A stretch of 64,000 nucleotides of DNA, taken from the IMG/VR virus record IMGVR_UViG_3300029554_000003, positions 77,064 to 141,063 of that record; one strand, written 5' to 3'. This DNA is from a virus. Its lineage: Duplodnaviria > Heunggongvirae > Uroviricota > Caudoviricetes. The position numbers and the translations under genes were made by a program. Position 1 is the first letter of the stretch; each line of letters starts with the position of its first letter. The notes beneath the pieces were generated by a model that was not told where the DNA came from, ran no database searches, and saw only the letters and a list, made by a program, of their open reading frames with translations. Below are positions 46,307-63,389 of this stretch, piece after piece.

Positions 46307-46313
46307 ATTTTAG

Positions 46314-46385
46314 CGTGCCAGAGAAGATTCGAACTTCTATCTCGAGAGCGTCACCTCGCAATTTTGCCAGTTAAACTACTAACAC
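46314..46385 (-). tRNA. tRNA-like gene with non-canonical anticodon loop (6 or 8 nt)
   Basis: Perfect acceptor GTGTTAG/CTGGCAC (with G·U pairs). U8A9. D-arm GTTT-AACTGGCA-AAAT. Perfect T-arm AGAAG-TTCGAAT-CTTCT. Total length 72 nt. The anticodon helix CGAG(G)/(T)CTCG encloses GTGACGCT, so no 7-nt loop is possible. Anticodon undetermined. Confidence 0.45.
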
Positions 46386-46644: not shown

Positions 46645-47280
46645 TTAAATAAATTTCCAGTGTTTTTGATATGCAATTGTATTTGCTTTAGCTGCACTTC
46701 TAATATGCACAGTAATTCCACATATCTTTTTGGCTTGAGTATATTTATTCTCTTTTAAATATTTAGCCGCTTCTGTTATGGAATTAAAAATGATATTATC
46801 CGGTAGCATTAAAATTCTTTTACTATATTTTTGACGAACTAAATCTTGACTACTAAGAATAGAAACATTGCATTCTTCACAAGCTATTTTAACAGTTGAA
46901 ACATCACAACCGAAATATTGTGCTGTTTTCTTTTGATTTTGTAATTTTAAATACATATTAGCAATTTCTTGGTAATCGTAATATTTTTTACTATCGCCAC
47001 CTTTTGTAGCATTATATCCAGTATGACCATATGTGTTTAATTTAGCAATCCAATATTCTTCTCTTTTTGAAGAGTCTTCGGCAGAACATTCTTCTAATTG
47101 CTCAACATGAAAATGCTCAACGCCATATTTATTCATAGCAGAATACAGAGGACGTTTTTCACATCTTTCTTTTTTGCTATCTACAATATGCTCTCTAAAT
47201 CTTCTTTCGAGTGAAAAGTTGGTTTTGCCAACATATTGTTTTCCGTTAACATCATTTGTAATTACATAGATAAAAGCCAT
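46645..47280 (-). CDS. GIY-YIG homing endonuclease
   Basis: N-terminal IYVITNDVNGKQYVGKT…R…EH (GIY…YIG…R…E/H class). C-terminal DNA-binding region. Paralogue of 52591..53232. Sits at a tRNA cluster, as SegB does in T4. Confidence 0.65.
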   Translation of the reverse strand: MAFIYVITNDVNGKQYVGKTNFSLERRFREHIVDSKKERCEKRPLYSAMNKYGVEHFHVEQLEECSAEDSSKREEYWIAKLNTYGHTGYNATKGGDSKKYYDYQEIANMYLKLQNQKKTAQYFGCDVSTVKIACEECNVSILSSQDLVRQKYSKRILMLPDNIIFNSITEAAKYLKENKYTQAKKICGITVHIRSAAKANTIAYQKHWKFI

Positions 47281-47433
47281 ACAGTCCTCAATCCTACCTC
47301 AATAATAATATTGAGTAAGCAGGCGTTGAGGTTTATTCGCTTTTCCTTATGGTAGCTACTCCAATAAGTAGCTTACTCAATTATACAATATAAAAATCGT
47401 GTTATAGCGATTATATGATTTAGACCAAGATAG

Positions 47434-47524
47434 TGCAAGATTTTGGACTCGAACCAAAAATTTTCGCTAATCTGGCGATAATACAGTTTATAAGTCTGCT
47501 GTTTTACCATTAAACTAATCTTGC
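47434..47524 (-). tRNA. class-II-like tRNA embedded in a 17-bp extended stem; anticodon loop CUUAUAA (UAU?)
   Basis: Acceptor GCAAGAT/ATCTTGC. U8A9. D-arm GTTT-AATGGTA-AAAC. Anticodon arm GCAGA-CUUAUAA-ACTGT (A31·A39). Long variable hairpin TCGC-CAGATTA-GCGA. T-arm TTTGG-TTCGAGT-CCAAA. Flanked by the perfect 17-bp inverted repeat GACCAAGATAGTGCAAG/CTTGCACTATCTTGGTC. Confidence 0.5.
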
Positions 47525-47563
47525 ACTATCTTGGTCTTTATAAACTATAATCCAAAGTTTACA

Positions 47564-47637
47564 TGGACGATATTAAATTTGAACTAATGACCTCTTACGT
47601 ATCAATCAGCGCTCTAGCCAAACTGAGCTAACCGTCC
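47564..47637 (-). tRNA. tRNA-like paralogue of the CAU tRNA with disrupted anticodon stem (possible pseudogene)
   Basis: Acceptor GGACGGT/ATCGTCC. D-arm GCTC-AGTTTGGCTA-GAGC. T-arm ATTAG-TTCAAAT-TTAAT, nearly identical to 45986..46059. The anticodon region CTGATTGATACGTAAGA cannot form a 5-bp stem. Confidence 0.35.
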
Positions 47638-47681
47638 ATGCAATCTTTAGAATATAAATCTAATAAGTAACTGCTTTTAAA

Positions 47682-48587
47682 CTATTGGTGAGACTTTAGC
47701 CACTTCTGAACATACCAAAGCTGGCCGCACCCACCACCAATATCATCTTGACCAGCTGGGTCAAATGTCCTTACATTATAACCCTTTTTTAAGAACTTAT
47801 TCTGAAACTTCTTAATAACACTTAAGTTCCTAAACGCCGCGTCTTTCATGGTTTCATCAGATGCGCAAACTACACTAAAAGTAAAATTAAAGATTACAGG
47901 AGAAAACAGGTCTGTAAGTTCTTTAAAATTCTTATCTTCATTATTCGTTCCATCAATGCAGTAATTTAAGAACGGATGCCTACCTGTCTCTTTCCACCAG
48001 ATAGTTCCAGCATCCCTAATCTTTTGAAGATTCATCTTATTCTTAAATGGAATTAATACATTTCTCTCTGTATCATTGGACTTATGAATAGAAAATTGCA
48101 AACCAATTTTATCTATCTTCTTAGATAGAGCAATCATCTTTGCAAAAGTTTCATCATTATCGCATCCAATAGTCGAAAGTAGTAACTGAGCATTACTAAA
48201 CTGTTGATGAAGATTGATAATTGCTTTTTCAACTTCTGTCCAATTTAACATAGGCTCGCCCATGCTCATAAACATAAACTGTAACTTTTTACACTTTTCG
48301 TTAATGTCATTAATTAAACCTTTATCAGTTAAAACGGTTACAATCTGGTCTACAATTTCATCAGCAGTAAGATTCCTAACAAACTTAGACCCCGTGCCGC
48401 AAAAGCGACATCCAACAGGACAACCGCTCATAACACTACAACAAATTACAGTTCTATCATAGTAACTATTATATTTATATAGAACTGCTTCAGCGACCAT
48501 ATCTTTTTTTGTAAAGACATACTTCCATACATCGCCAGAATTTCCTTCAAAAGTCTTAAAATTCATAACAGCACTTTCATTTAGCAA
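47682..48587 (-). CDS. RlmN/Cfr-family radical-SAM RNA methyltransferase
   Basis: CCSVMSGCPVGCRFCGTG matches the CxxxCxxC cluster of the family. MSMGEPMLN matches MGMGEPLLN. LLSTIG matches TLSTSG. FSIHKSND matches ISLHAPND. C-terminal GQDDIGGGCGQLW matches GDDIDAACGQLAG. At 301 aa it is shorter than bacterial RlmN at the N-terminus. Confidence 0.65.
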   Translation of the reverse strand: MLNESAVMNFKTFEGNSGDVWKYVFTKKDMVAEAVLYKYNSYYDRTVICCSVMSGCPVGCRFCGTGSKFVRNLTADEIVDQIVTVLTDKGLINDINEKCKKLQFMFMSMGEPMLNWTEVEKAIINLHQQFSNAQLLLSTIGCDNDETFAKMIALSKKIDKIGLQFSIHKSNDTERNVLIPFKNKMNLQKIRDAGTIWWKETGRHPFLNYCIDGTNNEDKNFKELTDLFSPVIFNFTFSVVCASDETMKDAAFRNLSVIKKFQNKFLKKGYNVRTFDPAGQDDIGGGCGQLWYVQKWLKSHQ

Positions 48588-48817
48588 TCTTCGTCAAAAT
48601 AATAGTCTTCTAGCATAGCGGGAATGCCGTCAAGCAGCTCATTCTCGCCAAGAGTCTCTAAAGCAACATCAACCAAGTCGGCATCGTACATATCATAAAG
48701 CAGATCAAGATATGCGTCACGGTCAGATTTACTAATCTCCATTGTATTCCTCTTCGTCATACTCTCCATCATTGCATATCCAATCATTAACGCATACCTT
48801 GTCAGGTTCGTCATCAA
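48581..48817 (-). CDS. hypothetical acidic small protein
   Basis: 78 aa, after the conserved promoter copy at 48900-48960. Confidence 0.35.
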   Translation of the reverse strand: MMTNLTRYALMIGYAMMESMTKRNTMEISKSDRDAYLDLLYDMYDADLVDVALETLGENELLDGIPAMLEDYYFDEDC

Positions 48818-48974
48818 TTAAATGCTTGCGGCAAATTCCTAGATACCAAAGGTCTGTAGACTCATAATATTTGCAATTACCGCATATATTAGTCGCTTCA
48901 ACCATTATTTCTTCTTTCTCTTGGTTTCTTTAACTATATTATAGCATATCTTTTAACCAAAAGTCAAGAAAAAA

Positions 48975-49346
48975 TTAGGCATAAAATTCGTTGAAATTAT
49001 TAAGCCAATCCAAGAGAGCTAAAGATGTAAGTGGCGCCATGTTCCATAACTGCTCAGCACAATAAGTGCTAGTATGAGAAGGATTCTTTTCCATAGCATT
49101 TACAACAAGGTCATGGAAAACAGCACGGTCAACCTTTTTAAGTTCATCTACAATCTTCTCAATATCTTTCTGCTGACTAAGGTACACAATGAAATCAAGA
49201 ATCATAGCAGTCATTTTATTAAGGTGCATACTACACATTTCACTCATATTTCGACTCCAATTTAGGATGAATTGCCCATTCACCGCACCTGTCCCCACTT
49301 TGGGGAGAAGGATGTACAGTATAAACATTATAATCTGTTGGGTCAA
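48975..49346 (-). CDS. hypothetical protein
   Basis: 123 aa ORF. Confidence 0.35.
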   Translation of the reverse strand: MTQQIIMFILYILLPKVGTGAVNGQFILNWSRNMSEMCSMHLNKMTAMILDFIVYLSQQKDIEKIVDELKKVDRAVFHDLVVNAMEKNPSHTSTYCAEQLWNMAPLTSLALLDWLNNFNEFYA

Positions 49347-49438
49347 TAATTACATTTGGAGGAAAACGATAGCAACTGCAATTTTTGTAAAATCTGCAAT
49401 TGCCGCAGATACGCTGGACCTTATGCTTGACTTCCATT

Positions 49439-49975
49439 TTACTCTCCAAGCTCAATCTTCTTCTGCTGAACATCGAGCCAAATATCATGAATATTAACAG
49501 GAGTAAGATTATTCGTGTCAACACCTACATGATACGTCCAATCAACAAGACCCTTGGGAGCCGCATCATGGACATGACCGTACAGAATAACATTGGCGCT
49601 GTCTCCACACATTTCCTCGGGACGCTCGTGAATCATAATGAAACTGACATCGTTGTAATCAAGGCAAGATACCTTGTTTTCGATAATCCAGCCGAGCTTT
49701 TCCATTTCAGCAATGCGCTTCTTGGTATCGTGATTGCCGGGAATCACATGAATCTTTCCATTAAGACGAGAACCGTATTTAGCTACAGTCTCAAGCGGTC
49801 CCATGAAACAATCACCAAGATGGTAGACAGTATCATCAGGAGATACAACGGAATTCCACTTCTCAACGATGTGTTCGTTCATATCCTCGACATTATTAAA
49901 AGCACGCGACTGCTCACAATAGGTAATAATATTCTTGTGAGAAAAGTGAGTGTCGCTTACTACAAAGATGCTCAT
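49439..49975 (-). CDS. calcineurin-like metallophosphoesterase
   Basis: Likely start is MSIFVVSDTHFSH at 49975 (GGAGA RBS). Has the D-x-H, GD, GNHD and GH…H signature motifs. Confidence 0.65.
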   Translation of the reverse strand: MSIFVVSDTHFSHKNIITYCEQSRAFNNVEDMNEHIVEKWNSVVSPDDTVYHLGDCFMGPLETVAKYGSRLNGKIHVIPGNHDTKKRIAEMEKLGWIIENKVSCLDYNDVSFIMIHERPEEMCGDSANVILYGHVHDAAPKGLVDWTYHVGVDTNNLTPVNIHDIWLDVQQKKIELGE

Positions 49976-50033
49976 TGAATCTCCTTTCGATTTCTTAAAT
50001 ATATTATAACATAATATATAGCCAATAGTCAAC
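49976..50033 (-). promoter_or_regulatory. conserved promoter + leader copy
   Basis: Reverse strand TTGACT-N18-TATAAT, immediately after the terminator at 50034-50066. Confidence 0.55.
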
Positions 50034-50066
50034 AAAAAAAGGGACTCAAGAGAGTCCCTACAAAAA
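50034..50066 (-). terminator. intrinsic terminator closing tRNA cluster 2
   Basis: GGGACTC-tctt-GAGTCCC followed by TTTTTTT on the reverse strand. Confidence 0.6.
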
Positions 50067-50076
50067 TATCAATGTG

Positions 50077-50609
50077 TGCGGAAAAAGTTTATTCAGTGTT
50101 GGATGGTCATAAAAAATTGCTATATGAAGTAACTGAATAATAATCACGCACATTTGCGTCTATATAGCTCGCACACTATATAGACGAGAAAGGGGTTTAC
50201 AAATAACGACAAGGAAAAAATGTAAAGAGGGTGGGTGCTACTTTCTAATGAAAGCTGCTCTTATTTAAACATATAACGAAGTAACTCTTTACTAATCACT
50301 TGCCTTGCAAGAGAAAGCGATACGGAAATAGGCGTTTCAGTTTGAGTAATCAGCTCGGAATGGAGATTTGAAGTATCTGAAACATTATCACGTATCGCCC
50401 ACTTTAGTAAAATAAATGCGGAAAAGATAAAATCAGTTTAAACGTGCAACCGACACAGAGCTGGAGTCGAACCAGCGAGTACATTTTTCCAGAATGAAGT
50501 AACTGATTTATCATCACGCATTATAATAAATAAATGCGGAAAAGTTAGATTCAGTGTATAATATTAACATACCAAAATTAATGTGAAGTAACTGAATCTT
50601 AATCACGCA
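50077..50609. repeat. family of ~75-105-nt repeat elements (U1 50077-50150; partial 50277-50304; U2b 50326-50397; U3 50417-50520; U4 50535-50609)
   Basis: Each unit starts TGCGGAAAAG-[8-10 nt X] and ends TGAAGTAACTGA-[X' complementary to X]-(T/C)CACGCA. Internal sequences differ. U3 contains a perfect T-arm-like hairpin GCTGG-TTCGACT-CCAGC. Confidence 0.7.
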
Positions 50610-50735
50610 TTTAATAAACATTGGTGCCGCATCTAGGTAACGCTCCTAGCCAGTCTAAGACACTTGATTTACAGTCAAGACCTCGTCTTTAAAGGAATAC
50701 TGCGGCAGTTATATTTTAAAGTTTAGTATGCCTTG

Positions 50736-50817
50736 TCTTGGGTTCGGGAGTCGGACCCGAATGCCTTATGGCGCTATTTTTTGAGAATAGTGTGTATACC
50801 AGTTCCACCAACCCAAG
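50736..50817 (-). tRNA. tRNA-Leu (CAA)-like, class II, embedded in an extended stem
   Basis: Acceptor CTTGGGT/ACCCAAG. D-stem GTG/CAC. Anticodon arm CTATT-CUCAAAA-AATAG. Variable hairpin GCC-ATAA-GGC. T-arm TCGGG-TCCGACT-CCCGA (T-loop variant). Flanked by an ~18-bp imperfect inverted repeat AGTATGCCTT…/…AAGGCATACT. Confidence 0.45.
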
Positions 50818-50838
50818 GTAAGGCATACTAATATGTTT

Positions 50839-51288
50839 TTAATTGGTTTGTTCCTGAATCCCAAGCATATCAAAAAACTCGTCTGGAATAAACTTGTCAT
50901 CCAAAGGCTGATAGTCTTTCCAGATAATCAGAGGATACCAAGTCTTTGACCACTCAGTAAATTCAGCAAATTCATCATTATATCCAAAAGAAACAGCAAA
51001 ACCAAACCAGCTAGGCTTGACATGCGGGAAAGTCTTTTTGATAATTCCCTCGTTGTCAACAAAATCACCGATACGACCGCAAATAGTACAAACATTCCTA
51101 TAAGCATAAGTCCATTTACCAGCGTATTTATCATAATAGTTGATAATGATACTCTTACCATAATCATGCTTATGATTAGCCTTTTTCACAGTCTTTTTTT
51201 TCTGCTTACGAGCGGGAGCATTAGCAGCATCGTCAGGGATATAAGCGTATTTAGTTGCCAATACTTCATCCTTATAAGGATACGACAT
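50839..51288 (-). CDS. hypothetical protein
   Basis: 149 aa ORF. Confidence 0.4.
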   Translation of the reverse strand: MSYPYKDEVLATKYAYIPDDAANAPARKQKKKTVKKANHKHDYGKSIIINYYDKYAGKWTYAYRNVCTICGRIGDFVDNEGIIKKTFPHVKPSWFGFAVSFGYNDEFAEFTEWSKTWYPLIIWKDYQPLDDKFIPDEFFDMLGIQEQTN

Positions 51289-51545
51289 TTACAAAGCTCC
51301 TTTTCTGCTTTTGGATAAAATTATTTGGACAGAAGAATGTTATGAAGATATTCATCGGCTTCTTCAAACGTATCGAAGTCCTTGATAATCTCAAAACGAA
51401 CAGTTGAGCAATCAGTGTTGACACGAATAGAGTAGATGCCGCAAGTCTTTTCCTTGCAAATGACGAACTGCTTCATAACAAACCTCTTTCTCTCTCGGTT
51501 TATATATATTATATAATATTATAAACCAAAAGTCAAGGAAAAATA

Positions 51546-51637
51546 TGCGGAAAAATTGGGGTCAGACTAACAAATGCAGCGTACCGCATTTAAACATACC
51601 ATAATTCTTCACGAAGTAACTGAACCCTCGTCACGCA
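51546..51637. repeat. fifth copy (U5) of the GCGGAAAAG…GAAGTAACTGA…TCACGCA repeat element
   Basis: Same termini as U1-U4. Contains the internal hairpin AAATGC-agcgtacc-GCATTT. Confidence 0.6.
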
Positions 51638-51869
51638 TATTAAATCACTAATTATGAAAGAATGACACCCTGCTTCGCCTTGTTAATCTTGCGGCGAAGT
51701 TTGCGCATGATACCTACATTCTCTGAGTTCTTTCCCTTACGATTGATAAGCATCTGATAACGCTGCTCCATCGTCTCGACTGACTGTGCCATACTTTCTT
51801 ACCTTTCTCTTGGTTAAATATATTATATCAAATTACTCAACCATTTGTCAAGTAATTTTTTATAACAAA

Positions 51870-52300
51870 ATTGGTCGCGAAGTGCCGCTGACGCTGCGAC
51901 TTAACAGAGCTTATGAGACTCCGTGAGATACTGACCTCCCACCCGCAATTAAAGTAGTAGTTTTCACATCTGCCGAGGTTTGAAAACTACCAAAATATAC
52001 CAGATTCCTCTTCCCCTAGGCGTTTCTTTTCAAGTATACGCTGGCCCGCATTGTCTACGGCTACAGAGACGGCATATATAAAATCTTGCAAGCAAGATAA
52101 TATAATCACGTGGACGGTTTCAAACTGGGAAAGCCGCCAACCCTTTAATCTATAATCCCTGCAAAAGATTATAGAAGTCGGGAGACATTTACCTTGCAGC
52201 GATAACCTCTCCCCAAGCTATAACACAATCGTTAGGTGCTATTCTCACCAATTGAACTACAGCCCCTTGCGGGAAAGACAGGAGTCGAACCTGCATCTTC
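51870..52300 (-). ncRNA. second GC-rich structured non-coding region (~430 nt) behind the duplicated tRNA-cluster promoter
   Basis: No ORF of 60 aa or more. The leader after the promoter begins ACAAAATCGTGAAGGTGAAGATGCAGG-TTCGACT-CCTGT (isolated T-arm hairpin), then GGGGCTGTAGTTCAATTGGTGAGAATAGCACC (tRNA 5'-half-like), then ~350 nt of hairpin-rich sequence with no matching 3' half. Confidence 0.35.
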
Positions 52301-52324
52301 ACCTTCACGATTTTGTTAATTATA

Positions 52325-52365
52325 TTATATAAAATTACTTGGTATTTGTCAAGTAATTTTTTTAA
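52325..52365 (-). promoter_or_regulatory. tRNA cluster 2 promoter (TTGACA-N17-TATAAT)
   Basis: Reverse strand TTGACAAATACCAAGTAATTTTATATAATATAATTAACAAAATCG. Near-identical to the promoter and leader at 46598-46640. Confidence 0.6.
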
Positions 52366-52590
52366 CAGGCTGGCTCTTTCTGTGCTGCCCAGAAATTTTA
52401 TGATTCAGAGTCATATGTTCTACTGTTGAACTAAGAGCCAAAAAGTGGGCAAATTTATATAGCGACTGCCCAAACCGCTAAATTGACTTGGGGTAGTACA
52501 GGCGAGTTCAAAGCTCGGTCTACTACCACTTGGAGAGTGTCTAAGATTAGCACTCTATTTTAGTAATATATATATTACTAAAATACAACA

Positions 52591-53232
52591 CTAACTTTCT
52601 ACATATTCCCAATGGAAACCATACGATGTTTTGTTAATATTTTCACAAACCTGCTTAATATGCCTTGAAATTCCTTGTATAGATTTATTTGTAGTATAAT
52701 TGTTATCAAATAACCATTGAGACGCATCGTGCAATGATTGAAAAATTTTATTTTCTTCTATCAGTCGCACTTTTTTAGAATATCTTTCTTTACAAAGAGT
52801 ATTTGGTCGTAGCATTTCTATGCCACATTGTTTACATGCAAGTCGGACAGTATCAGCGCAACAATGAAAATATTTTGCTACTTTTATTGTATCATGTGTT
52901 TGTGAATACATGTCAGCTATTTTTTTATAATCATAAAATGAACAACCGTCTCCACCAATTGTAGCATTGTATCCATTGCGATAAGTATCTAATTTTGTTA
53001 TCCAATACTTTTCTTTTTCGTCAACTTCATCTGACGAACATTCTTCTAATTGAAAGGCATGAAAGTGCTCTACGCCATATTTTTTCATAGCTTTATAAAG
53101 AGGTCTACCTTGTATTTGTTCTTTTTTGCTGTCGCTTAAATGTTGGGCGAATCTTCTCTTAATTGTAAAATTAGTTTTTCCAACATATTTTTTGTTGTTG
53201 ACATCATTTACAATAACATAAATATAAGACAT
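52591..53232 (-). CDS. GIY-YIG homing endonuclease (second copy)
   Basis: Likely start is MSYIYVIVNDVNNKKYVGKT at 53232. Paralogue of 46645..47280, also adjacent to a tRNA-cluster promoter. Confidence 0.65.
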   Translation of the reverse strand: MSYIYVIVNDVNNKKYVGKTNFTIKRRFAQHLSDSKKEQIQGRPLYKAMKKYGVEHFHAFQLEECSSDEVDEKEKYWITKLDTYRNGYNATIGGDGCSFYDYKKIADMYSQTHDTIKVAKYFHCCADTVRLACKQCGIEMLRPNTLCKERYSKKVRLIEENKIFQSLHDASQWLFDNNYTTNKSIQGISRHIKQVCENINKTSYGFHWEYVES

Positions 53233-53502
53233 TTTATCACCCACTTAAATAATGAATGGAGCCAACTTAGGGTGCTGCCCCCTATGCTTCGCTTTACAAG
53301 AGCGATGTATTACTGTTATACTAAGCTGGCTTTACCAAAAAGAAAAATGAGCCTGCAATACTCTAGAAATCTTGCAGGCTCTAACACCACTATTACAATA
53401 TAAAAGTTGCGCAACAAAAATTATAACTTTTTGTCCAGAACTTTTATTTTGTAACTAAAAATATTATATCATATTGATATAAAGTCTGTCAAGAACTTTT
53501 TT

Positions 53503-54066
53503 TTAGCTGTCAAACCAATAGACAACAAGAATATCCTGCGGAGTTAGATAATATGCTCCTTCAATGCTACAATAACGCTTAATATCTTCGATAAAATCAC
53601 CGACACTATCTTTAAGCTCATTGTTAGAGGAATGACTTCCAAGCATATCATCTACCGCATACTTAGTAGAACTAATTGCATTATAATGATTGATAATATC
53701 AGAGAGCATGACAGCATTATATCCATATGCGCCGCACTCTTCCCAGTCTTCCCATTCTTTGAGAATTTTTTGCGGCACAAGACCATCATAGTCAAAATAC
53801 AGGCCAACGGGACAAGCAGATTCATCTACATATACACGGCCATTACCATCCATGAGCCAAGAAAACAACTCATAATTGCGACCATTGTATGGCTGGGCAT
53901 ATTCATACACGACACTATCATCATCATTGTTATAATACTTAGAAAATAACTCTACCGGATAATACTCTTCGCATCCATTCTTTTGTGCATACTCGCTAGT
54001 CTTGCGAGCAAGATAAACATGAATGTCTTGTCCCATAAAAAGCTCCTTACAGCGTATCCCTGTCAT
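53503..54066 (-). CDS. hypothetical protein
   Basis: 187 aa. The start may be M11 (MGQDIHVY). Confidence 0.4.
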   Translation of the reverse strand: MTGIRCKELFMGQDIHVYLARKTSEYAQKNGCEEYYPVELFSKYYNNDDDSVVYEYAQPYNGRNYELFSWLMDGNGRVYVDESACPVGLYFDYDGLVPQKILKEWEDWEECGAYGYNAVMLSDIINHYNAISSTKYAVDDMLGSHSSNNELKDSVGDFIEDIKRYCSIEGAYYLTPQDILVVYWFDS

Positions 54067-54400
54067 ATACTTGGCAGGAAAGGTTTAAGTCCATAAGATT
54101 GGCGTAAATATCACTAAGTCGATTCGCAATATCTGCACGAGTGTTATTCTTGCACGAACGACCATTAAGATTCTTAATCTCGTTTTCCAAGTCACTCAGC
54201 TCAGAGTTGATGGCATGTTGTACCTCGTACAAATCATCACCAATAAGACCTTCAACACCAGTTGCGTAATTCGTATTGTGATAATTGAAAAGCATCATGG
54301 ACTCTAGTTCATCATAGTTGAAGCCGTTCTCTTTCAAGCAAACGTCCAAGTCGCGCTTCGAGTCAATATTGTAATATTTATCTTTGACAAACAAATCCAT
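54047..54400 (-). CDS. hypothetical protein
   Basis: 117 aa, after the conserved promoter copy at 54401-54460. Confidence 0.4.
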   Translation of the reverse strand: MDLFVKDKYYNIDSKRDLDVCLKENGFNYDELESMMLFNYHNTNYATGVEGLIGDDLYEVQHAINSELSDLENEIKNLNGRSCKNNTRADIANRLSDIYANLMDLNLSCQVYDRDTL

Positions 54401-54465
54401 GATACCTTCCTCTCTTTCTTTAACTATATTATATAACTTCTTAAACCTCTTGGCAAGAACTTTTT

Positions 54466-54885
54466 TTAACCAAATAGCTTTAGCAGACGGGCAAAATCTT
54501 GGTCAAGAAGAGACTCATAGGAAGGACGGCTTGTGCGAACAGTCTTTGCATCCTTGGTATCCTTTTCAATTTCCTCAATCTGCTTCTTGATTTCCTCAGC
54601 CTGAGACTTTAGGTCAGCGAGCTTAGCCGCACGCTCTTCACGCTCCTTCTTAATCTTCTCAGCCTGCTCCTTATCCTTTTTCTGCTTACGGCCATTGGAT
54701 ACAGTCATAAGCTCACGTGTAAGAGTGCTAGTCAGTTCATCAATAACCTTCATAACATCTTTGCCACTAGCTTTATGGTCTAGGTCAAGACCGTCCGAAT
54801 CAGTTACATGTACACCAAAGTCTACGACACCATCCTCATTTGCTGTCATAGCTAGATTAAAATTTAGACCATAAGATTCTGCCAT
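54466..54885 (-). CDS. hypothetical protein with K/E-rich coiled coil
   Basis: 139 aa ORF. Confidence 0.4.
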   Translation of the reverse strand: MAESYGLNFNLAMTANEDGVVDFGVHVTDSDGLDLDHKASGKDVMKVIDELTSTLTRELMTVSNGRKQKKDKEQAEKIKKEREERAAKLADLKSQAEEIKKQIEEIEKDTKDAKTVRTSRPSYESLLDQDFARLLKLFG

Positions 54886-54978
54886 TTACCATTCTCCTTT
54901 TAATTCTTTTGTTCCTTTAACTTCGTTAATATTATAACAAATATTTTTCTAGAAGTCAACTATTTTATTGAAAATATT

Positions 54979-55752
54979 TTAGTACCAACCATGAGACTGC
55001 CAATGTGCGGCTGCATTTTCCCAGCTACCATATCTATTTGACACATATTGTTCAGCAACCCTGTCTTGATTTTCCTGCGACAAGTCTCCATTCAAATAGG
55101 AAATATCAAGCTGATATGCGCCATAGTAGCGTCCATTGGTTGCGCTATAACTGCCGCCACTTTCCTTAGAAACAATGAAATCACGTGCAGAGCCATTCCA
55201 AGAGTAATTAGAATATGAATAACTTGGTGTACTATATAAGTTAGACTGTTGATTCTGATAACTTACCTGCGCCGCAGCTTTTTGAGCAGCAGCTTCTTGA
55301 GCCGCACGTTCTTCTGCTTCTTTCTTCTCTTGGAGAGCTTTCTGTTTCTTATCTGCACCATACTGTTTCCAGCTATCAAGTCGAGCCTTATATTGCTTTA
55401 GTTCTGTAATAGTGTCGCAAACAGATTGCTTCTCCATAATATCTTGAATCTCTAAAATATCATTCTGTTCAAGATAATCTCCGTAATTCTGAATAATATA
55501 TATAACATCATCAAACTGAGAGTCTTTCATGTTACATTTATCCACTAGCCATGTCTGAGCGTTATCGTACCCATCTTCCTTATATGGAATCATAGCATCA
55601 AGTGTAGTTGTGCGGACTGCCGCATTTGTAATTTCATCATTAACGATAATTGCATCTGCTTCGTTTACACAAAAAGCATTTGTCACGCCAGCGAGTGCCA
55701 CTACGGATAGGCACATAGCCAATGCTTTCGTTTTGTTTTTAATGAATTTCAT
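54979..55752 (-). CDS. secreted transglycosylase-like protein (Rpf/IsaA-type domain)
   Basis: N-terminal signal peptide MKFIKNKTKALAMCLSVVALAGVTNAF. C-terminal KESGGSYSATNGRYYGAYQLD…VAEQYV…GSWENAAAHWQSHGW matches the transglycosylase-like ESGG…NG.YYG..Q…W core. Confidence 0.55.
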   Translation of the reverse strand: MKFIKNKTKALAMCLSVVALAGVTNAFCVNEADAIIVNDEITNAAVRTTTLDAMIPYKEDGYDNAQTWLVDKCNMKDSQFDDVIYIIQNYGDYLEQNDILEIQDIMEKQSVCDTITELKQYKARLDSWKQYGADKKQKALQEKKEAEERAAQEAAAQKAAAQVSYQNQQSNLYSTPSYSYSNYSWNGSARDFIVSKESGGSYSATNGRYYGAYQLDISYLNGDLSQENQDRVAEQYVSNRYGSWENAAAHWQSHGWY

Positions 55753-55848
55753 TCGGATAATTCCTCTTTCTATTCCTATACGACAAGACGATTGCTTAAA
55801 AATATATAAAAAATGTGGGCAAAAGATTATAATCTTTTGCCCAATTAG

Positions 55849-56661
55849 TTAATTTGTAAAACGGATTTGCTTCTTCTTTAAAACCTCGCCAAGAGACAGA
55901 AAATCTTCACATTTATTACAATGGTTTGATAGACGCTTGCAACAACGACGCTCGCAGTTAATTTTGCTTGCAGTGAAACTTGGGTGGATTGCGTCACAAT
56001 GAAAATCCATATCTACATCTTCATTGATTTCACTCATTTGACCATGCCAATATTTATTAATGAACCATGCACGATATAAGACATCAAACTTTGCCCAATC
56101 ACATGGCAAACCGCATTCAAATTCAAAGACATCAAAATACGGATTGATAGTATCCATATCTTTTGGCATAAAGATTGGAGCCTTTGGATTGATACCACGG
56201 TCAAGTGTCATTGACGGCACCTGATTTAAAATTAGCCGCATTTGAACATTATTCTCTTGACAAATATCATGAACATTCTTTAGATTATAACATAAATCAT
56301 CGGCAATATATACATCAGATACACCTAAATTGATAAAAGACTCAAGACAGGAATAGGTTGGAACCTTCATATCTTGATTAAAAAAAAACTTATATGAATT
56401 TTCTTTAAGCTCTGCGGCCTTTGTAATGTCTGTTGGTGCTACGCGGATATAAATCTTGTCTGACACCTTGTTAATTGACTTGACGGTAGGCATATGAATA
56501 CCTTCTGGGAATTCAAGATTGATACGAGTATCCTCATACTCCTGCGCAAAGTCAATTAGATCCTCAATTGAATTGCGAGATTTGTAAAAGAGAATGTTAA
56601 ACTCTTTAACTTCATCGTTCAATTCGCCATTCAATTGAAATGGAATTGCCAATTTAATCAT
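55849..56661 (-). CDS. hypothetical protein with C-terminal Cys cluster
   Basis: 270 aa ending …CERRCCKRLSNHCNKCEDF…. Confidence 0.4.
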   Translation of the reverse strand: MIKLAIPFQLNGELNDEVKEFNILFYKSRNSIEDLIDFAQEYEDTRINLEFPEGIHMPTVKSINKVSDKIYIRVAPTDITKAAELKENSYKFFFNQDMKVPTYSCLESFINLGVSDVYIADDLCYNLKNVHDICQENNVQMRLILNQVPSMTLDRGINPKAPIFMPKDMDTINPYFDVFEFECGLPCDWAKFDVLYRAWFINKYWHGQMSEINEDVDMDFHCDAIHPSFTASKINCERRCCKRLSNHCNKCEDFLSLGEVLKKKQIRFTN

Positions 56662-57204
56662 ATATCATCCTTTCATAATAACCTATTTTATATTATATAA
56701 CAAAAAAGGGCAATTGTCAAGAGACAATCACCCTAAAAATCATTAAAGATATGCGGCCAAACGATTCCACAACCATTGTGGCAAATCAGAAGTCTCGACC
56801 TCATAATCATCCAAGAGGTCATAAACAATATCGGCAGAAGCGTGCCCATCATATTCAGTTTCAATTGTCTGAATTACATAATTTACCTTCTGCTCCATCT
56901 CTTCCTCGGCAGCAAGAAGCATCATGGGATTGCCCACAGAATTGTCCATGTGCAGCATTATTAGTCCTCCATCAAAATGTCGACAATCTTGAACATGTCT
57001 GCGGAGATACGCTCTACGCGCACACCGTAAATGATGTGAATCATGTCAATTGCACCATCAACATGATATCCAGAACCATCATCACGATGCTCAAGATAAT
57101 AATTTGCAAGGTGCAGAATAGCAGCGTTGTAAGAAGCCATCATATCTTTTCCTCTCTCTTGGCTATACCATAATTATAGCATATGATATAGCCAATCGTC
57201 AAGA

Positions 57205-58152
57205 TTAATTTTCAAACCAGTTTCGCAACTCGATAACCGAGGGGCAAGTTCCACGACCTTTCTCGCGGCACTCTTCTACAAACTCAGGGATTGCGTCCAT
57301 GAGACGAGGTTCAAATGCAAGCTTGGTCTTGATGTTCTTGATAGCATCAATGTCGCGTCCAGTCCAAACCTGCTGTAAAACTCCACGAGCCTGCTTCCAG
57401 TTCTTGTACCAAGGAGTCTTATATTTCACCATGAAACCGTTCGCATCCTCGAAGACAAAGCCCTCGATGTATGCACGTGCGGCCCACTTGTCAATAAAGG
57501 CTTCAAACTCCTGCCAGTTAGCAATGACTTTGCTAAGAACCTTGCAATAGAATCCGAAATGTCCCGCTACGTCAATAAGTGTATAGTACCCCGCATGGCT
57601 ATAGTTGAAATCATTGTACACCAAGTCCAAAAGCACGAGGTGAGGATGCGAATACTCAACAATATGCGGGTCATGGATAGGGTCAATGCACTCGAAGACA
57701 GCAGTGCAGTCATTCTTGTGCAGATATTCTGCGAATTCCTCCTGCTGTGCAGTGGTCAACGTCTTGTCAAGAACGTCACGGATATATCCCGCGAAGTCTC
57801 CTTCATTCGTGCTCTTGGATGCGATGAACAGTTTACCGTCCTCGGTCGGGTCGGCAGAAATCATCGCAAGGAATCCGTTAGACTTGACATATGCACACAC
57901 AGGGAACACAAGATTCTCGCGCAGGCTAGCCATTTCAGTCTCAGGACGTTCTCCAATATTGAAGAACTTGTTGTACGAACGTGCAACAACCTTATTATCA
58001 TCTTTTACAAAAAGTCCGCGTGCTTTAACATTAATATCATCCCATGCTTGGTTGAAAAAGCACTTGTTTGAGAAATTAAAAGAAGAGATTCCATTGGCAA
58101 GATGTTTCTCGCGCACAAGCGAGCTATTACGCAGTATATCGACTTCGTTCAT
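57205..58152 (-). CDS. ATP-dependent RNA ligase-like nucleotidyltransferase
   Basis: Candidate motif I is K in VKSNGFLAM. Motif IV is EGFVFED. Motif V is VKYKTPWYKNWK. At 315 aa the size fits the Rnl2/DraRnl class. Confidence 0.5.
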   Translation of the reverse strand: MNEVDILRNSSLVREKHLANGISSFNFSNKCFFNQAWDDINVKARGLFVKDDNKVVARSYNKFFNIGERPETEMASLRENLVFPVCAYVKSNGFLAMISADPTEDGKLFIASKSTNEGDFAGYIRDVLDKTLTTAQQEEFAEYLHKNDCTAVFECIDPIHDPHIVEYSHPHLVLLDLVYNDFNYSHAGYYTLIDVAGHFGFYCKVLSKVIANWQEFEAFIDKWAARAYIEGFVFEDANGFMVKYKTPWYKNWKQARGVLQQVWTGRDIDAIKNIKTKLAFEPRLMDAIPEFVEECREKGRGTCPSVIELRNWFEN

Positions 58153-58200
58153 TTATCTTCCTCTCTCTTGGTTTAATAATATTATACCATATATAAGTGT
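58153..58200 (-). promoter_or_regulatory. conserved promoter + leader copy
   Basis: Reverse strand TTGCCG-N17-TATAAT then TATTAAACCAAGAGAGAGGAAG. Confidence 0.5.
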
Positions 58201-58467
58201 GTGCGGCAAATATTTTTTTCTACAAAAAAAAGGAAAAGGAACTAGTCCTTTCCCTTAGTAGCATTTTCTTCAAATTCCATGCGCTCTAACTTTTCCTTAC
58301 GTTTTGCCTTATAAGTATCGTCTTTGCGCTGACGAATTAGCTTTGCTTTATGGGAAAACTTTTCAAAAGTATCATCATCGCTATACTCAAGTTCGTCCCA
58401 GTCACGAATTTTCACAATAAATCCTTTCAAAGAAAAATGCTGTCTAATATAAGTCTGACAATCTGTC

Positions 58468-58544
58468 TGGTGGGCTATACAGAACTCGAATCTGTAACCT
58501 AAAGATTAGAAGTCTTTTGCTCTATCCATTTGAGCTAATAGCCC
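58468..58544 (-). tRNA. tRNA-Arg (UCU) with encoded CCA
   Basis: GGGCTAT TA GCTCAAATGGATAGAGC A AAAGA-CUUCUAA-TCTTT AGGTTA CAGAT-TCGAGTT-CTGTA ATAGCCC A CCA. Confidence 0.7.
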
Positions 58545-58569
58545 GTCAAACAGATTGTCTAGAACTTGT

Positions 58570-58860
58570 CTAATAAGTGATGATATAGACCTTTCGGCTA
58601 GTATCGTGATAAATCTGCGTCACTTCTGCTAAAATATTGTGTAGTACAGCATCGCCAACAGTCTTCTTAGCTTCGTCATCGCCATATGCAAGAATAAAAT
58701 GCGGAACAATTGCATCATATGTATCACGAACAGGAACGCGCTTACCATTAACGAAATCTACAAGGGTAGTATACTGTTCACACCATACAAATACAAAATT
58801 CGGATTGAGCTTTGTAATGTATGAATTCATTTCCTTGTCAGGAATAATAATACAATTCAT
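58570..58860 (-). CDS. hypothetical protein
   Basis: 96 aa ORF. Confidence 0.4.
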   Translation of the reverse strand: MNCIIIPDKEMNSYITKLNPNFVFVWCEQYTTLVDFVNGKRVPVRDTYDAIVPHFILAYGDDEAKKTVGDAVLHNILAEVTQIYHDTSRKVYIITY

Positions 58861-58948
58861 TACTTAAATCGCTTTCCATAGTAATATGCGTATACAGAAA
58901 AAAGAAAAATAGAAACAATTCCTATAATTACAATCAACATGTTATCAC

Positions 58949-59392
58949 CTAATATACTTTTTCATAAATAAAAGAATCGTCACCAGTATAATAAAAATGC
59001 TGGATACCCTTATCACGCAAAGCGTGCAAGCACGCAGGACAACTTCGTGCTAAACCGAAATTAAATCGCTTTCCATTGCAGATACGATAAGTATATACCT
59101 TTACCTTTGAATAGTCAAGGTTGACATCAATACACTTTGGAATATTCAAAAGACAATCAATCTCTGCATGAAGATAATCATGAATAGGTTGACCATTCTC
59201 TCTAAACGTGCGATATTTGCGATTATACTTCTTTTGCAAAGGATTGGTCTTGCGACTATTGTGACCAGTAGCAAGAACTTTGCCTTTATAAGACATAACA
59301 GTGCCGAGTTTGAAAGGTTTATATGTAGATTCCAGTGCCGCCTTTCGCGCCAAATCAAACATCTTCATATCATGCTTACTAAACTCAGCCAT
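58949..59392 (-). CDS. CDA-fold zinc deaminase (dCMP deaminase or TadA-like)
   Basis: HAEIDCL (H-A-E) and SCPACLHAL (PCxxC) zinc-binding motifs. 147 aa. Confidence 0.55.
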   Translation of the reverse strand: MAEFSKHDMKMFDLARKAALESTYKPFKLGTVMSYKGKVLATGHNSRKTNPLQKKYNRKYRTFRENGQPIHDYLHAEIDCLLNIPKCIDVNLDYSKVKVYTYRICNGKRFNFGLARSCPACLHALRDKGIQHFYYTGDDSFIYEKVY

Positions 59393-60282: not shown

Positions 60283-60283
60283 A

Positions 60284-62870: not shown

Positions 62871-63383
62871 CTAAATTGCTTTTAGCTGGTCAATGATTGG
62901 CAAAATTTGCATATTATTTGTGCCGATAGCGTAATTTTGCTGCTCTGAAATAAACACAATTCTGTCAAACGGCTCCCTGTCTTGCGGCGAAACCTTGCAT
63001 CTATACATTTCTGCAATTTCTTTTTCGCTTAGACGATGATATTTATCACGATTCTTATTGCGCGCAACTGCTACATTCTGTGGAGTCTCAACCCAAACAC
63101 AAATCACTTCACAACCATTGTAATTGACATTGTTGAAAAACTTATCGCGCTCGACACGATTGATATTGCGGTCATTTGCCACAACATAGCGATGTGATTT
63201 TAGAGCAATGTTGACTGCATTGTAGAAACGTTTGTCAACTGTATTAGCATCTTCTGAATTATACATGCGGCAATTGTCTCGCTTGATTGTCATACAATCT
63301 TCGTGCGAATCTTGAATTGCCTTTGCAAATACAGATTTACCACTTTGAGGTACACCGCACATTAAAATCAATGTATGCTTCAT
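62871..63383 (-). CDS. P-loop polynucleotide-kinase-like protein (second copy)
   Basis: LILMCGVPQSGKS Walker A. 170 aa. Paralogous in architecture to 44337..44816. Confidence 0.5.
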   Translation of the reverse strand: MKHTLILMCGVPQSGKSVFAKAIQDSHEDCMTIKRDNCRMYNSEDANTVDKRFYNAVNIALKSHRYVVANDRNINRVERDKFFNNVNYNGCEVICVWVETPQNVAVARNKNRDKYHRLSEKEIAEMYRCKVSPQDREPFDRIVFISEQQNYAIGTNNMQILPIIDQLKAI

Positions 63384-63389
63384 TTTAAC

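What the first reader, a model, noticed from the sequence alone, without database searches (positions are those of the whole stretch)
50077..51637. Novel family of at least five ~75-105-nt repeat elements with conserved termini in tRNA cluster 2
Units U1-U5 all begin TGCGGAAAAG and end TGAAGTAACTGA…(T/C)CACGCA. The 8-10 nt following the 5' terminus is complementary to the segment after ACTGA. So each unit can close into a long terminal helix around a variable core. One core carries a perfect isolated T-arm hairpin (GCTGG-TTCGACT-CCAGC). The units are not regularly spaced and have no spacer-like uniqueness, so this is not a CRISPR array. They sit between a terminator (50034-50066) and tRNA-like genes. 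They could be small structured RNAs, processing signals (RNase III/RNase P-like substrates), homing-endonuclease targets, or a miniature mobile element (MITE-like).
Basis: seen in the sequence. Interest (0 to 1): 0.75.

Follow-up and report, generated by a model that had tools for sequence, protein, structure and literature searches.

The report
Phage Y RNAs: partners of Ro60
The repeated 75-105-nt elements are six small structured RNAs of the Y RNA type, the partners of the RNA-quality-control protein Ro60, which this gut phage encodes about 3 kb beyond the window; they belong to a large, undescribed phage subfamily with its own conserved protein-docking stem.

Summary
It must be read on the minus strand, and there are six units, not five. 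Each unit is a fixed-geometry scaffold:
- a closing helix of free sequence;
- an invariant irregular helix, 5'-GUGAU / 5'-UUUCC (G-C, U.C, G.U, A-U, U.U);
- a second helix of free sequence;
- an invariant single-stranded UUACUUC;
- a variable core.

Both helices covary strongly. Rfam has no match.

The family is large: 151 distinct units in 83 fetched viral loci. Cores are modular: 98 simple, 33 with a T-arm only, 14 with a permuted tRNA-like domain as in YrlA, and 6 with a whole tRNA.

In many lineages, arrays of 1-4 units sit 0-600 nt upstream of a TROVE (Ro60/Rsr) gene on the same strand, followed by an Rnl1-type RNA ligase. A 141-kb gut metagenome contig is 100% identical to the window's last 10.6 kb. 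It carries a TROVE gene 3.15 kb past the window's end.

The units are therefore phage Y RNAs, co-transcribed with tRNAs inside an RNA-repair island. This is a new sequence and structure variant of a known kind. It is not a MITE, not a CRISPR array and not decayed duplication. Ro60 binding itself is inferred, not shown.

The parts
50077..50150 (-). Unit U1 (Y RNA-like, simple core). The closing helix extends to 50074-50153. It is the last unit before the terminator.
   Evidence: Regex and R1 hit at 65.8 bits. The MFE fold forms P1 and P2, z -3.1.
50208..50304 (-). It has P1 GGCAAG/CUUGUC, GUGAU, P2 GUAAAGAG/CUCUUUAC, UUACUUC and UUUUCC.
   Evidence: Helix-filter scan: P1 5/5, P2 8/8, and the MFE forms P1 and P2. 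The orthologue L080 6815-6900 scores 30.2 bits with R1. R1 itself did not score the window copy.
50321..50394 (-). Unit U2, with the variant termini UACG...CGUA (a compensatory change). Its closing helix extends to about 10 bp (GGGCGAUACG/CGUAUCGCUU).
   Evidence: (59.3 bits).
50417..50520 (-). Unit U3. Its core keeps a T-arm (GCUGG UUCGACU CCAGC) followed by a GG-loop hairpin (GUGU CGGUU GCAC), a reduced tRNA-elbow-like module.
   Evidence: 59.5 bits. The T-stem covaries in orthologues (GCAGG/CCUGU or CCUGC in L080, L122).
50535..50609 (-). Unit U4 (simple core).
   Evidence: 68.2 bits; z -2.95.
51546..51637 (-). Unit U5 (two-hairpin core), placed after a 46-aa ORF and just before the next promoter. 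In L137/L158 the unit at the same syntenic position carries a full permuted tRNA-like domain.
   Evidence: 58.1 bits. Synteny with L137/L158. Rfam YrlA scores 31.8 bits on the L137 unit.
50040..50059 (-). Intrinsic terminator that ends the tRNA and Y RNA transcription unit.
   Evidence: Terminator scan: 8-bp stem with a T-run.
51508..51536 (-). Sigma-70-type promoter (TTGACT-17-TATAAT). It drives two small ORFs, tRNA-Leu, a tRNA-Tyr-like gene, then U4, U3, U2, U6 and U1.
   Evidence: Promoter scan, 11/12 matches. The gene order is read.
51822..51851 (-). Sigma-70-type promoter (12/12 matches) that drives the 46-aa ORF and U5.
50735..50817 (-). tRNA-Leu(CAA), co-transcribed upstream of the unit array.
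   Evidence: ARAGORN.
57208..58152 (-). Rnl1-type RNA ligase. In related phages its homologue lies immediately downstream of TROVE, which in turn follows the units.
   Evidence: Pfam RNA_lig_T4_1, E 6e-42. Synteny units-TROVE-Rnl1 in L319, L408, L449, L365, L510, L532.
55852..56661 (-). 270-aa protein with no Pfam domain. Its homologues recur in the TROVE/Y RNA neighbourhoods of related phages.
   Evidence: tblastn, 31-52% identity in L319, L313, L449, L309, L375, L409, L368 and L097. No Pfam hit.
62874..63383 (-). Polynucleotide-kinase-like P-loop protein, part of the RNA-repair island.
   Evidence: Pfam AAA_33 / KTI12.

Best explanation
The six units are genes for Y RNAs, the small non-coding RNAs that bind the ring-shaped RNA-quality-control protein Ro60 (Rsr, TROVE domain).

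**Expression.** They are transcribed from the minus strand. U5 follows a 46-aa ORF. The other five follow tRNA-Leu and a tRNA-Tyr-like gene in one operon that ends at the terminator at 50040-50059. They are presumably cut out of these precursors.

**Architecture.** Each RNA folds into a rigid handle of fixed length:
- a closing helix P0/P1 of free sequence;
- an invariant irregular helix, 5'-GUGAU-3' over 5'-UUUCC-3' (G-C, U.C mismatch, G.U, A-U, U.U);
- an 8-10-bp helix P2 of free sequence;
- an invariant single-stranded UUACUUC.

**Proposed binding site (inferred).** The pattern 'pair, unpaired pyrimidine, G, A' on the 5' strand resembles the Ro60-contacted motif of other Y RNAs. Those motifs are GGUC[C]GA in vertebrates, protected G7 G8 C9 G11 A12 in Deinococcus Yrn1, and GNCGAA in YrlA. 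I propose it is the docking site for the phage's own Ro60, which is encoded 3.15 kb beyond the window's right end.

**Effector module (inferred).** The variable core on top of the handle is the effector module. Across the family it is a whole tRNA, a permuted tRNA-like domain as in YrlA, a T-arm only, or plain hairpins. In this window it is one reduced tRNA-elbow mimic (U3) and five plain cores.

**Proposed function (by analogy).** In Deinococcus, Salmonella and Thermus phage phiLo, the Y RNA tethers or gates Ro60 and recruits partners such as host PNPase. Here the RNP would work alongside the neighbouring RNA-repair genes (Rnl1, Rnl2-like ligase, PNK, phosphoesterase, SpoU methylase). Its likely role is to keep tRNAs and rRNAs usable, or to remodel host RNA, during infection.

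**Shown versus inferred.** Shown: the structure and its covariation, the family, the TROVE linkage and the transcription-unit layout. Inferred: Ro60 binding, processing into discrete RNAs and the downstream function.
For: **1. Structure**
- In an alignment picked by sequence motifs only, the helices give 124 double-change cells against 50 in shuffles (0/500 shuffles reach it) and 15-50 when partners are slid.
- In a more diverse set, 14 of 17 pairs show compensatory changes and 94% of cells are paired.
- The scaffold has constant length.

**2. Family**
- There are 151 distinct units in 83 loci from many samples.
- Cores: 98 simple, 33 T-arm only, 14 permuted tRNA-like, 6 full tRNA.
- The Rfam YrlA model hits the permuted cores below threshold, at 31.8-32.6 bits.

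**3. Ro60 linkage**
- In 10 of 10 tested loci, the roughly 490-aa ORF next to the units is TROVE, E 1e-11 to 1e-22.
- Units lie 0-600 nt upstream of TROVE on the same strand, in arrays of 1-4, in 18 of the 80 TROVE loci fetched.
- R1 gives weak hits upstream of distant TROVEs as well.
- Contigs that carry near-identical orthologues of the window's units all appear among the TROVE-encoding contigs.

**4. The window's own genome**
- ENA contig k119_50901 (141 kb) is 100% identical to window 53390-64000.
- It encodes a 486-aa TROVE protein (53 bits against a cut-off of 23) 3.15 kb past the window's end, next to an Rnl2-like ligase.
- The best PDB match of this protein is phiRo60 of Thermus phage phiLo, E 2.7e-21.

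**5. Precedent**
- phiRo60 binds two Y RNA-like RNAs encoded upstream of its gene and forms a complex with host PNPase (PMC12135203).
- Bacterial Y RNAs mimic tRNA, occur as two or more per genome, and can be co-transcribed with a tRNA (PMC4201824).

**6. Context**
- Strong minus-strand promoters and a terminator frame the units.
- The neighbourhood encodes Rnl1, PNK, SpoU, a phosphoesterase and many tRNAs.
Against: - No binding or expression data exist for this family.
- In the window's lineage the units are not next to TROVE. They are about 15.5 kb away and on the opposite strand, and that TROVE gene has its own promoter and no adjacent unit.
- The conserved 5' motif is GUGAU, not the CGAA/GNCGAA motif used to define bacterial Y RNAs. 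The divergent members show that even the C is not kept.
- The Rfam YrlA model does not reach its gathering score on any member (at most 32.6 bits against 69) and does not hit the window's units at all at E<=10.
- Five of the six window units lack any tRNA-like module.
- The invariant UUACUUC has no described counterpart in Y RNAs.
- Part of the apparent invariance and pairing is due to ascertainment. Members were collected with patterns containing GTGAT, AGTTACTTC and TTTCC, and the second alignment was filtered for helices.
Confidence: 0.8

Rival explanations
1. The units are cis-acting processing or stabilising cassettes of tRNA operon transcripts. The long terminal helix would be a substrate for a double-strand endonuclease (RNase III, Mini-III or RNase M5-like) or an insulator between tRNAs. 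On this view it has no function as a free RNA and no link to Ro60.
For: - The units are embedded in tRNA arrays and co-transcribed with tRNAs.
- In L003, L349 and L391 the scaffold encloses a complete tRNA that Rfam scores at 63.9 bits, which looks like a leader/trailer stem.
- The closing helix extends into the flanks.
Against: - A plain processing stem does not need an invariant irregular helix plus an invariant 7-nt single strand kept across very different phages.
- Most units (98 of 151) enclose no tRNA-like element at all.
- Units occur as arrays directly upstream of TROVE genes even where no tRNA is next to them.
- U5 follows a protein gene, not a tRNA.
Confidence: 0.08
2. The units are free-standing tRNA-mimic decoys that work without Ro60. 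They would soak up host tRNA-targeting nucleases or tRNA-binding defence proteins, or be substrates of the phage RNA ligases.
For: - T-arm, D-arm and whole-tRNA cores occur in the family.
- The window carries an RNA-repair island typical of phages that face anticodon nucleases.
- In the window's lineage the units are unlinked from TROVE.
Against: - The conserved part is the handle, not the tRNA-like core.
- Five of the six window units have no tRNA-like feature.
- The tight, same-strand adjacency to TROVE in many lineages is not explained.
Confidence: 0.07
3. The units are a miniature mobile element (MITE-like), a homing-endonuclease target, or simply decaying local duplications of tRNA genes.
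For: - Several copies lie close together.
- Their termini look like imperfect inverted repeats.
- GIY-YIG endonuclease genes are nearby.
- Chimeric units made by recombination between paralogues exist (L143 4470, L177 1245).
Against: - The helices change sequence while keeping pairing, so the termini are not a fixed transposase site.
- The motifs are strand-specific and the geometry is fixed.
- Each paralogue has its own orthologue at the same position in about 20 related contigs.
- There are no copies elsewhere in the 64-kb window.
Confidence: 0.02

Closest known systems
Bacterial and phage YrlA RNAs (Rfam RF02553; Chen et al. 2014, PMC4201824)
   Same: - It is a partner RNA of Ro60/Rsr and is encoded next to the TROVE gene in many genomes.
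- The 5' and 3' ends form a long interrupted stem.
- The apical domain is a permuted tRNA mimic (T-arm, acceptor-like hairpin, then a UAGCUCA...GGUAGAGC D-arm). Fourteen distinct family members have exactly this order.
- There are several Y RNAs per genome.
- Co-transcription with tRNA is documented for Deinococcus Yrn1/Yrn2.
   Different: - The basal stem is different. It has an invariant GUGAU/UUUCC irregular helix plus UUACUUC, instead of the GNCGAA(N)G motif.
- No member reaches the Rfam gathering score (at most 32.6 bits against 69).
- Most members, including five of the six in the window, have no tRNA-like domain.
- There are up to six paralogues per genome.
- In the window's lineage the genes are about 15 kb from TROVE.
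Yrl1/Yrl2 of Thermus phage phiLo with phiRo60 (PDB 9KOP, 9L5Y; PMC12135203)
   Same: - These are phage-encoded Y RNA-like RNAs upstream of a phage Ro60 gene, with a stem-bulge-stem shape.
- phiRo60 is the best solved-structure match of the window phage's TROVE protein (E 2.7e-21).
- Binding to Ro60 and assembly with host PNPase have been shown experimentally.
   Different: - They were identified through CGAA motifs in a large internal bulge, and no tRNA-like module was reported.
- The proteins are only about 23% identical by tblastn.
- The GUGAU/UUUCC and UUACUUC motifs are not described there.
YrlB, Yrn2 and metazoan Y RNAs (simple-hairpin Y RNAs)
   Same: - Each is a long hairpin closed by the paired ends, with a small variable apical part.
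- The Ro60 site is a helix with an unpaired pyrimidine followed by G and A on the 5' strand. The motif GGUCCGA forming a 'bulged helix' is stated in PMC4201824. The detailed pairing C-G, bulged C, G.U, A-U is recalled from my own knowledge of Stein et al. 2005.
   Different: - The sequences differ.
- Here the unpaired pyrimidine faces a C (a U.C mismatch) rather than being a one-sided bulge.
- There is an extra invariant UUACUUC strand.
D. radiodurans Yrn1
   Same: The tRNA-like domain is in normal order, with the Y stem taking the place of the acceptor stem. This is comparable to the six family members that enclose a whole tRNA (L003, L349, L391).
   Different: Those members score as bona fide tRNAs (63.9 bits, with an anticodon loop), so they might be processed into functional tRNAs. 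Yrn1 is not.

Membership tests
Y RNA (Ro60/Rsr-associated ncRNA, broad class) | Encoded with, or next to, a Ro60/Rsr (TROVE) gene in the same genome. | tested here: met
   - Family level: units lie 0-600 nt upstream of TROVE on the same strand in many loci.
- Window genome: TROVE lies 3.15 kb beyond the window's end, on a contig 100% identical to the window's last 10.6 kb.
- In this lineage the units are not adjacent to TROVE (about 15.5 kb away, opposite strand).
Y RNA (Ro60/Rsr-associated ncRNA, broad class) | The 5' and 3' ends pair into a long stem interrupted by an internal loop or bulge. | tested here: met
   Covariation supports P0/P1 and P2. The MFE folds of the single units form the stem.
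Y RNA (Ro60/Rsr-associated ncRNA, broad class) | A conserved Ro60-binding motif on the 5' strand (GGUCCGA in animals, GNCGAAN0-1G or CGAA in bacteria and phage phiLo). | tested here: inconclusive
   The invariant motif here is (N)GUGAU opposite UUUCC. It shares the pattern 'pair, unpaired pyrimidine, G, A', but it is not CGAA (PMC4201824; PMC12135203).
Y RNA (Ro60/Rsr-associated ncRNA, broad class) | Physical binding to Ro60, and Ro60-dependent accumulation. | not testable with these tools
   This needs EMSA or RIP with the TROVE protein (L640:5160-6617) and Northern blots or RNA-seq.
YrlA (Rfam RF02553) | Reaches the curated gathering score of the covariance model (69 bits). | tested here: not met
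   - The window units give no hit even at E<=10.
- The best family members score 31.8-32.6 bits.
- No YrlA hit appears in 20 other phage TROVE loci either.
YrlA (Rfam RF02553) | A permuted tRNA-like domain: T-arm, acceptor-like hairpin, D-arm. | tested here: inconclusive
   It is present in 14 distinct family members, including the syntenic counterpart of U5 in L137/L158. In the window only U3 keeps a T-arm plus a GG-loop hairpin, and the other five units have none.
tRNA (RF00005) | A cloverleaf scored by ARAGORN or Rfam. | tested here: not met
   No unit is called by ARAGORN or by Rfam. Only the cores of L003/L349/L391 units are.
CRISPR array | Regularly spaced identical repeats separated by unique spacers. 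| tested here: not met
   Spacing is irregular (14-930 nt). The conserved parts are split between the two ends of each unit and pair with each other.
MITE / transposon-derived repeat | Fixed terminal inverted repeats, target-site duplications and dispersed copies. | tested here: not met
   The termini covary instead of being fixed. There are no copies outside the cluster in 64 kb. Positions are orthologous in relatives.

The most novel reading that the evidence does not exclude
The GUGAU/UUUCC and UUACUUC handle would be a portable Ro60-docking cassette that phages use to load different cargo RNAs onto Ro60. The cargoes range from plain hairpins through tRNA-elbow mimics to complete, possibly chargeable tRNAs. 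A genome with six different handles would then programme one Ro60 ring for six different partners or substrates. Examples would be host PNPase, the phage Rnl1/Rnl2/PNK repair enzymes, or damaged tRNAs. This would make the system a modular, RNA-guided RNA-repair or RNA-decay platform, rather than a single Y RNA acting as a tether.
Probability: 0.25. Interest if true: 0.75.

Novelty: new variant of a known kind. Interest (0 to 1): 0.55.

Why it matters
Y RNAs and Ro60 are best known from human autoimmunity and from a few bacteria. Phage examples were limited to about 22 genomes predicted in 2014 and one biochemical study in 2025.

This finding shows several new things:
- A large group of roughly 140-kb human-gut phages, and many other viral contigs, carry a distinct Y RNA subfamily that no Rfam model reaches threshold on.
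- The subfamily has a sharply defined, invariant stem motif that can be tested directly as a Ro60 recognition element.
- Its cores are interchangeable, which documents how tRNA-derived modules are gained, reduced and lost.
- The RNAs can be amplified to six paralogues, moved into tRNA operons, and kept together with RNA ligase and kinase genes.

Practical consequences:
- It gives a ready covariance model for annotating these RNAs.
- It gives a concrete RNA-protein pair for structural work.
- It points to a role for Ro60 RNPs in the phage-host conflict over tRNA integrity.

Tried and rejected
- **Rfam.** Scanned at gathering and at E<=10. Nothing hit the units.
- **Box C/D, k-turn or hammerhead-like reading of GUGAUGA/CUGA.** Rejected by inspection of the unit sequences: the GA of box C is not conserved across units, and there is no GA on the 3' strand.
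- **Reading the units as odd tRNAs.** Rejected: P2 is not followed by acceptor-proximal T-stem geometry, and neither ARAGORN nor Rfam calls them.
- **megablast and blastn of the region against 50,697 phage records.** No match, or chance matches only.
- **Exact 44-mer from the window's end in IMG/VR.** No match. The flank was instead obtained through the look-up of encoding contigs.
- **A protein partner shared in the immediate neighbourhood of distant members.** First tried with all-against-all BLAST. Only GIY-YIG and the 270-aa protein appeared. The TROVE link emerged only after more loci were fetched.
- **Listeria phage P100/CKA15.** Abundant RNAs near tRNAs, upstream of an Rsr-like gene, are reported for CKA15 (PMC12282133). 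P100 gp165 is DUF2828/DUF7788, and the scaffold model finds nothing in its tRNA region. That transcriptomic evidence therefore cannot be transferred to this family.
- **R1 with filters off.** It scores long-core units worse and did not score U6. R1 with default filters also misses many long-core members, so a regex plus helix filter was used for the census.
Full report
**1. What is in the sequence**

Everything around the finding is encoded on the minus strand: eleven ARAGORN tRNAs, the ORFs, four strong sigma-70-type promoters and the terminator. Read on that strand, each unit has this layout:

5'-[closing helix]-GUGAU-N-[P2 5' strand ending in CAG]-(U/A)UACUUC-[variable core]-[P2 3' strand starting with CUG]-N-UUUCC-[closing helix]-3'

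- The pattern CGTGA-N4-20-CAGWTACTTC occurs five times in the window, all inside 50077-51637 on the minus strand. Shuffles give 0.00.
- The five units are U1 50077-50150, U2 50321-50394, U3 50417-50520, U4 50535-50609 and U5 51546-51637.
- A sixth, more divergent unit (U6, 50208-50304) has a different closing helix (GGCAAG/CUUGUC) but the same GUGAU, UUACUUC and UUUUCC motifs and a perfect 8-bp P2.
- Single-sequence folds form the predicted terminal helices, with z-scores of -1.8 to -3.1.

**2. The transcription layout**

- The promoter at 51851-51822 drives a 46-aa ORF followed by U5.
- The promoter at 51536-51508 drives two small ORFs, tRNA-Leu, an uncalled tRNA-Tyr-like gene, then U4, U3, U2, U6 and U1.
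- This second unit ends at the terminator at 50059-50040. A further promoter for the next gene follows immediately.
- The units are therefore parts of tRNA-containing precursors.

**3. The structure is under selection**

- Pattern scans of IMG/VR found orthologues in about 35 contigs of 80-147 kb. Each paralogue has its own orthologue at the same position.
- With the cores cut out, nearly all scaffolds have exactly the same length.
- In an alignment of 41 scaffolds chosen by sequence motifs only, the proposed helices give 124 cells with changes on both sides. Column shuffles give 50 (0/500 reach the observed value) and slid partners give 15-50.
- More distant members show that the closing helix can be any sequence: UGCG/CGCA, GACG/CGUC, AGCG/CGCU, GCAA/UUGC, AAGG/CCUU, GAUGCU/AGCAUC.
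- The top of P2 also changes in a compensatory way: CAG/CUG becomes UAG/CUA, AAG/CUU or GAG/CUC.
- In a 52-sequence diverse alignment, 14 of 17 pairs have compensatory changes. That set had been filtered for pairing, so its paired fraction is inflated.
- What never changes is G-C, U.C, G.U, A-U (GUGAU over UUUCC) and the single-stranded UUACUUC. This invariance is partly imposed by the search patterns.

**4. It is not in Rfam and has no cultured relative by DNA similarity**

- Rfam gives no hit on the units at E<=10.
- There is no DNA similarity to 50,697 phage records.
- By portal protein, the nearest cultured phages are gut phage Phass-1 (40%) and Enterococcus siphoviruses of about 140 kb (30%). 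The host is therefore probably a Firmicute. This is an inference.

**5. The cores are modular and often tRNA-like**

A covariance model of the scaffold (R1) finds exactly the five units in the window and 111 hits in relatives. Three further pattern scans plus a helix filter give 151 distinct units in 83 loci:

| Core type | Distinct units |
|---|---|
| Simple core | 98 |
| T-arm only | 33 |
| T-arm, then acceptor-like hairpin, then UAGCUCA...GGUAGAGC D-arm | 14 |
| Complete tRNA in normal order | 6 |

- The third type is the permuted order that defines YrlA. Rfam YrlA scores these at 31.8-32.6 bits, below its threshold of 69.
- Rfam scores the enclosed complete tRNA at 63.9 bits.
- In L137/L158 the unit at the position syntenic to U5 has the full YrlA-type core. 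Cores are therefore exchanged or reduced on a conserved handle.
- In the window, U3 keeps a T-arm whose stem covaries in orthologues, plus a GG-loop hairpin.

**6. The link to Ro60**

- In loci from other lineages, a roughly 490-aa ORF follows the units. All ten tested are TROVE-domain proteins, E 1e-11 to 1e-22, and several also match vWA_Ro60.
- tblastn finds TROVE in 23 held loci.
- Loci fetched with a TROVE alignment show arrays of one to four units 0-600 nt upstream of the gene on the same strand in 18 of 80 loci. Weak R1 hits appear upstream of distant TROVEs too.
- The usual order is units, TROVE, Rnl1-type ligase. A 270-aa protein lies a few kb further on. The ligase and the 270-aa protein are homologues of window 57208-58152 and 55852-56661.

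**7. The window's own genome has Ro60**

- No ORF in the window is TROVE.
- The 126-aa protein at the window's right end is encoded on ENA contig ERZ27235336 k119_50901 (141,103 bp, human gut). That contig is 100% identical to window 53390-64000 over 10,611 nt.
- Beyond the window it carries an Rnl2-like RNA ligase and a 486-aa TROVE protein (53 bits against a cut-off of 23). The TROVE gene sits at window-equivalent 67,154-68,614 on the plus strand.
- Its best solved-structure match is phiRo60 of Thermus phage phiLo (9KOP/9L5Y, E 2.7e-21).
- In this lineage the TROVE gene has its own promoter and no adjacent unit. The Y RNA genes have therefore moved into the tRNA operon.

**8. Comparison with what is known**

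- Chen et al. 2014 (PMC4201824) describe bacterial Y RNAs as follows. They are encoded near Ro60 in more than 250 bacteria and 22 phages. They have a tRNA-like module and a 5' motif GNCGAAN0-1G that resembles the vertebrate GGUCCGA bulged helix. There are at least two per species, and Yrn2 is co-transcribed with tRNA-Asp and Yrn1.
- The 2025 phiLo study (PMC12135203) shows that a phage Ro60 binds two phage Y RNA-like RNAs encoded upstream of its gene, and that it assembles with host PNPase.
- The present units share the genomic logic, the overall architecture and, in some members, the tRNA-like domain.
- They differ in the handle motif (GUGAU/UUUCC plus UUACUUC, not CGAA), in copy number, in core diversity and in being missed by Rfam. 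Rfam also finds no YrlA in 20 other phage TROVE loci.
- I therefore file them under the broad class of Y RNAs, but not under Rfam family YrlA.

**9. Mechanism**

*Shown:*
- a conserved structured handle with a variable core;
- co-transcription signals shared with tRNAs;
- genomic coupling to TROVE and to RNA-repair genes.

*Inferred:*
- the irregular helix, and perhaps UUACUUC, is the Ro60 docking site;
- the RNAs are excised from the precursors;
- the RNP acts in RNA quality control, repair or decay during infection, possibly by recruiting host PNPase.

*Rivals.* A pure processing cassette, a Ro60-independent tRNA decoy and a mobile element are each less consistent with the evidence, for the reasons given under the rival explanations.

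**10. Verdict**

The 'novel kind' and MITE readings are not. This is a new sequence and structure variant of a known kind. It is moderately interesting, because it defines a testable Ro60 recognition motif and a modular Y RNA architecture that is widespread in gut phages.

Noticed in passing
window 51874-52318 (-): A roughly 445-nt non-coding transcript lies between two 12/12 promoters. Its ends pair (UCGUGAAG/CUUCGCGA), and the reading CGUGAAG/CUUCGCG is followed by ACCA, like a tRNA acceptor end. Near the 5' end it has a T-arm (GCAGG UUCGACU CCUGU), a GNRA-capped hairpin and a D-arm-like element in YrlA order. Rfam YrlA scores it at only 20.7 bits, and there is no tmRNA, RNase P or intron hit. 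The fold z-score is -2.6. Its identity is unknown.
   Followed up: partly
window 52370-52440 (-), 53260-53330 (-), 50622-50712 (-): Three tRNA or tRNA-like genes have non-canonical T-loops. Two have GGGCAGCACAG/GGGGGCAGCACCC in place of GGUUCGAAUCC, and Rfam scores them at 46 and 43 bits while ARAGORN misses them. The third is a tRNA-Tyr(GUA)-like gene ending in GCGGCACCA, with a T-loop AGCGUUA, which neither tool calls.
   Followed up: no
window 46313-46385 (-), 47563-47638 (-), 47433-47524 (-): ARAGORN reports two tRNAs with four-base anticodons (gacg, gata) and a 92-nt tRNA-Ile(tat). These may be odd or intron-bearing phage tRNAs.
   Followed up: no
window 46648-47280 (-), 52594-53244 (-): Two GIY-YIG (SegE-like) homing-endonuclease genes are inserted between tRNA and ncRNA genes. 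Homologues recur in the same islands of related phages.
   Followed up: partly
window 47685-63383 (-) and L640 1-9770: This is an RNA-centred island. It holds a radical SAM protein, a metallophosphoesterase, Rnl1 ligase, a cytidine-deaminase-like protein, a SpoU methyltransferase, an SPFH/Band-7 protein and a PNK-like kinase. Just outside the window lie an Rnl2-like ligase and TROVE.
   Followed up: partly
L003 8849-9760; L612 1489-1905; L600 1210-1549: In L003 a ROOL RNA (298 bits) is flanked on both sides by units of this family. A GOLLD RNA and a tmRNA lie near TROVE genes in other phage loci. Large ornate RNAs, tRNA arrays and Ro60/Y RNA modules therefore share the same islands.
   Followed up: no
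L143 4470-4543; L177 1245-1318: These are chimeric units whose 5' half comes from one paralogue and whose 3' half comes from another. This breaks P2 and is evidence of recombination between neighbouring units.
   Followed up: no
window 50166-50195 (-): A perfect 11-bp hairpin (CGUCUAUAUAG...CUAUAUAGACG) lies between U6 and U1. It belongs to neither unit.
   Followed up: no
L644 36571-38091 (Listeria phage P100 gp165): This is the Rsr-like protein discussed for phage CKA15. It matches DUF2828/DUF7788 rather than TROVE in Pfam. Its upstream tRNA region has no unit of this family.
   Followed up: yes
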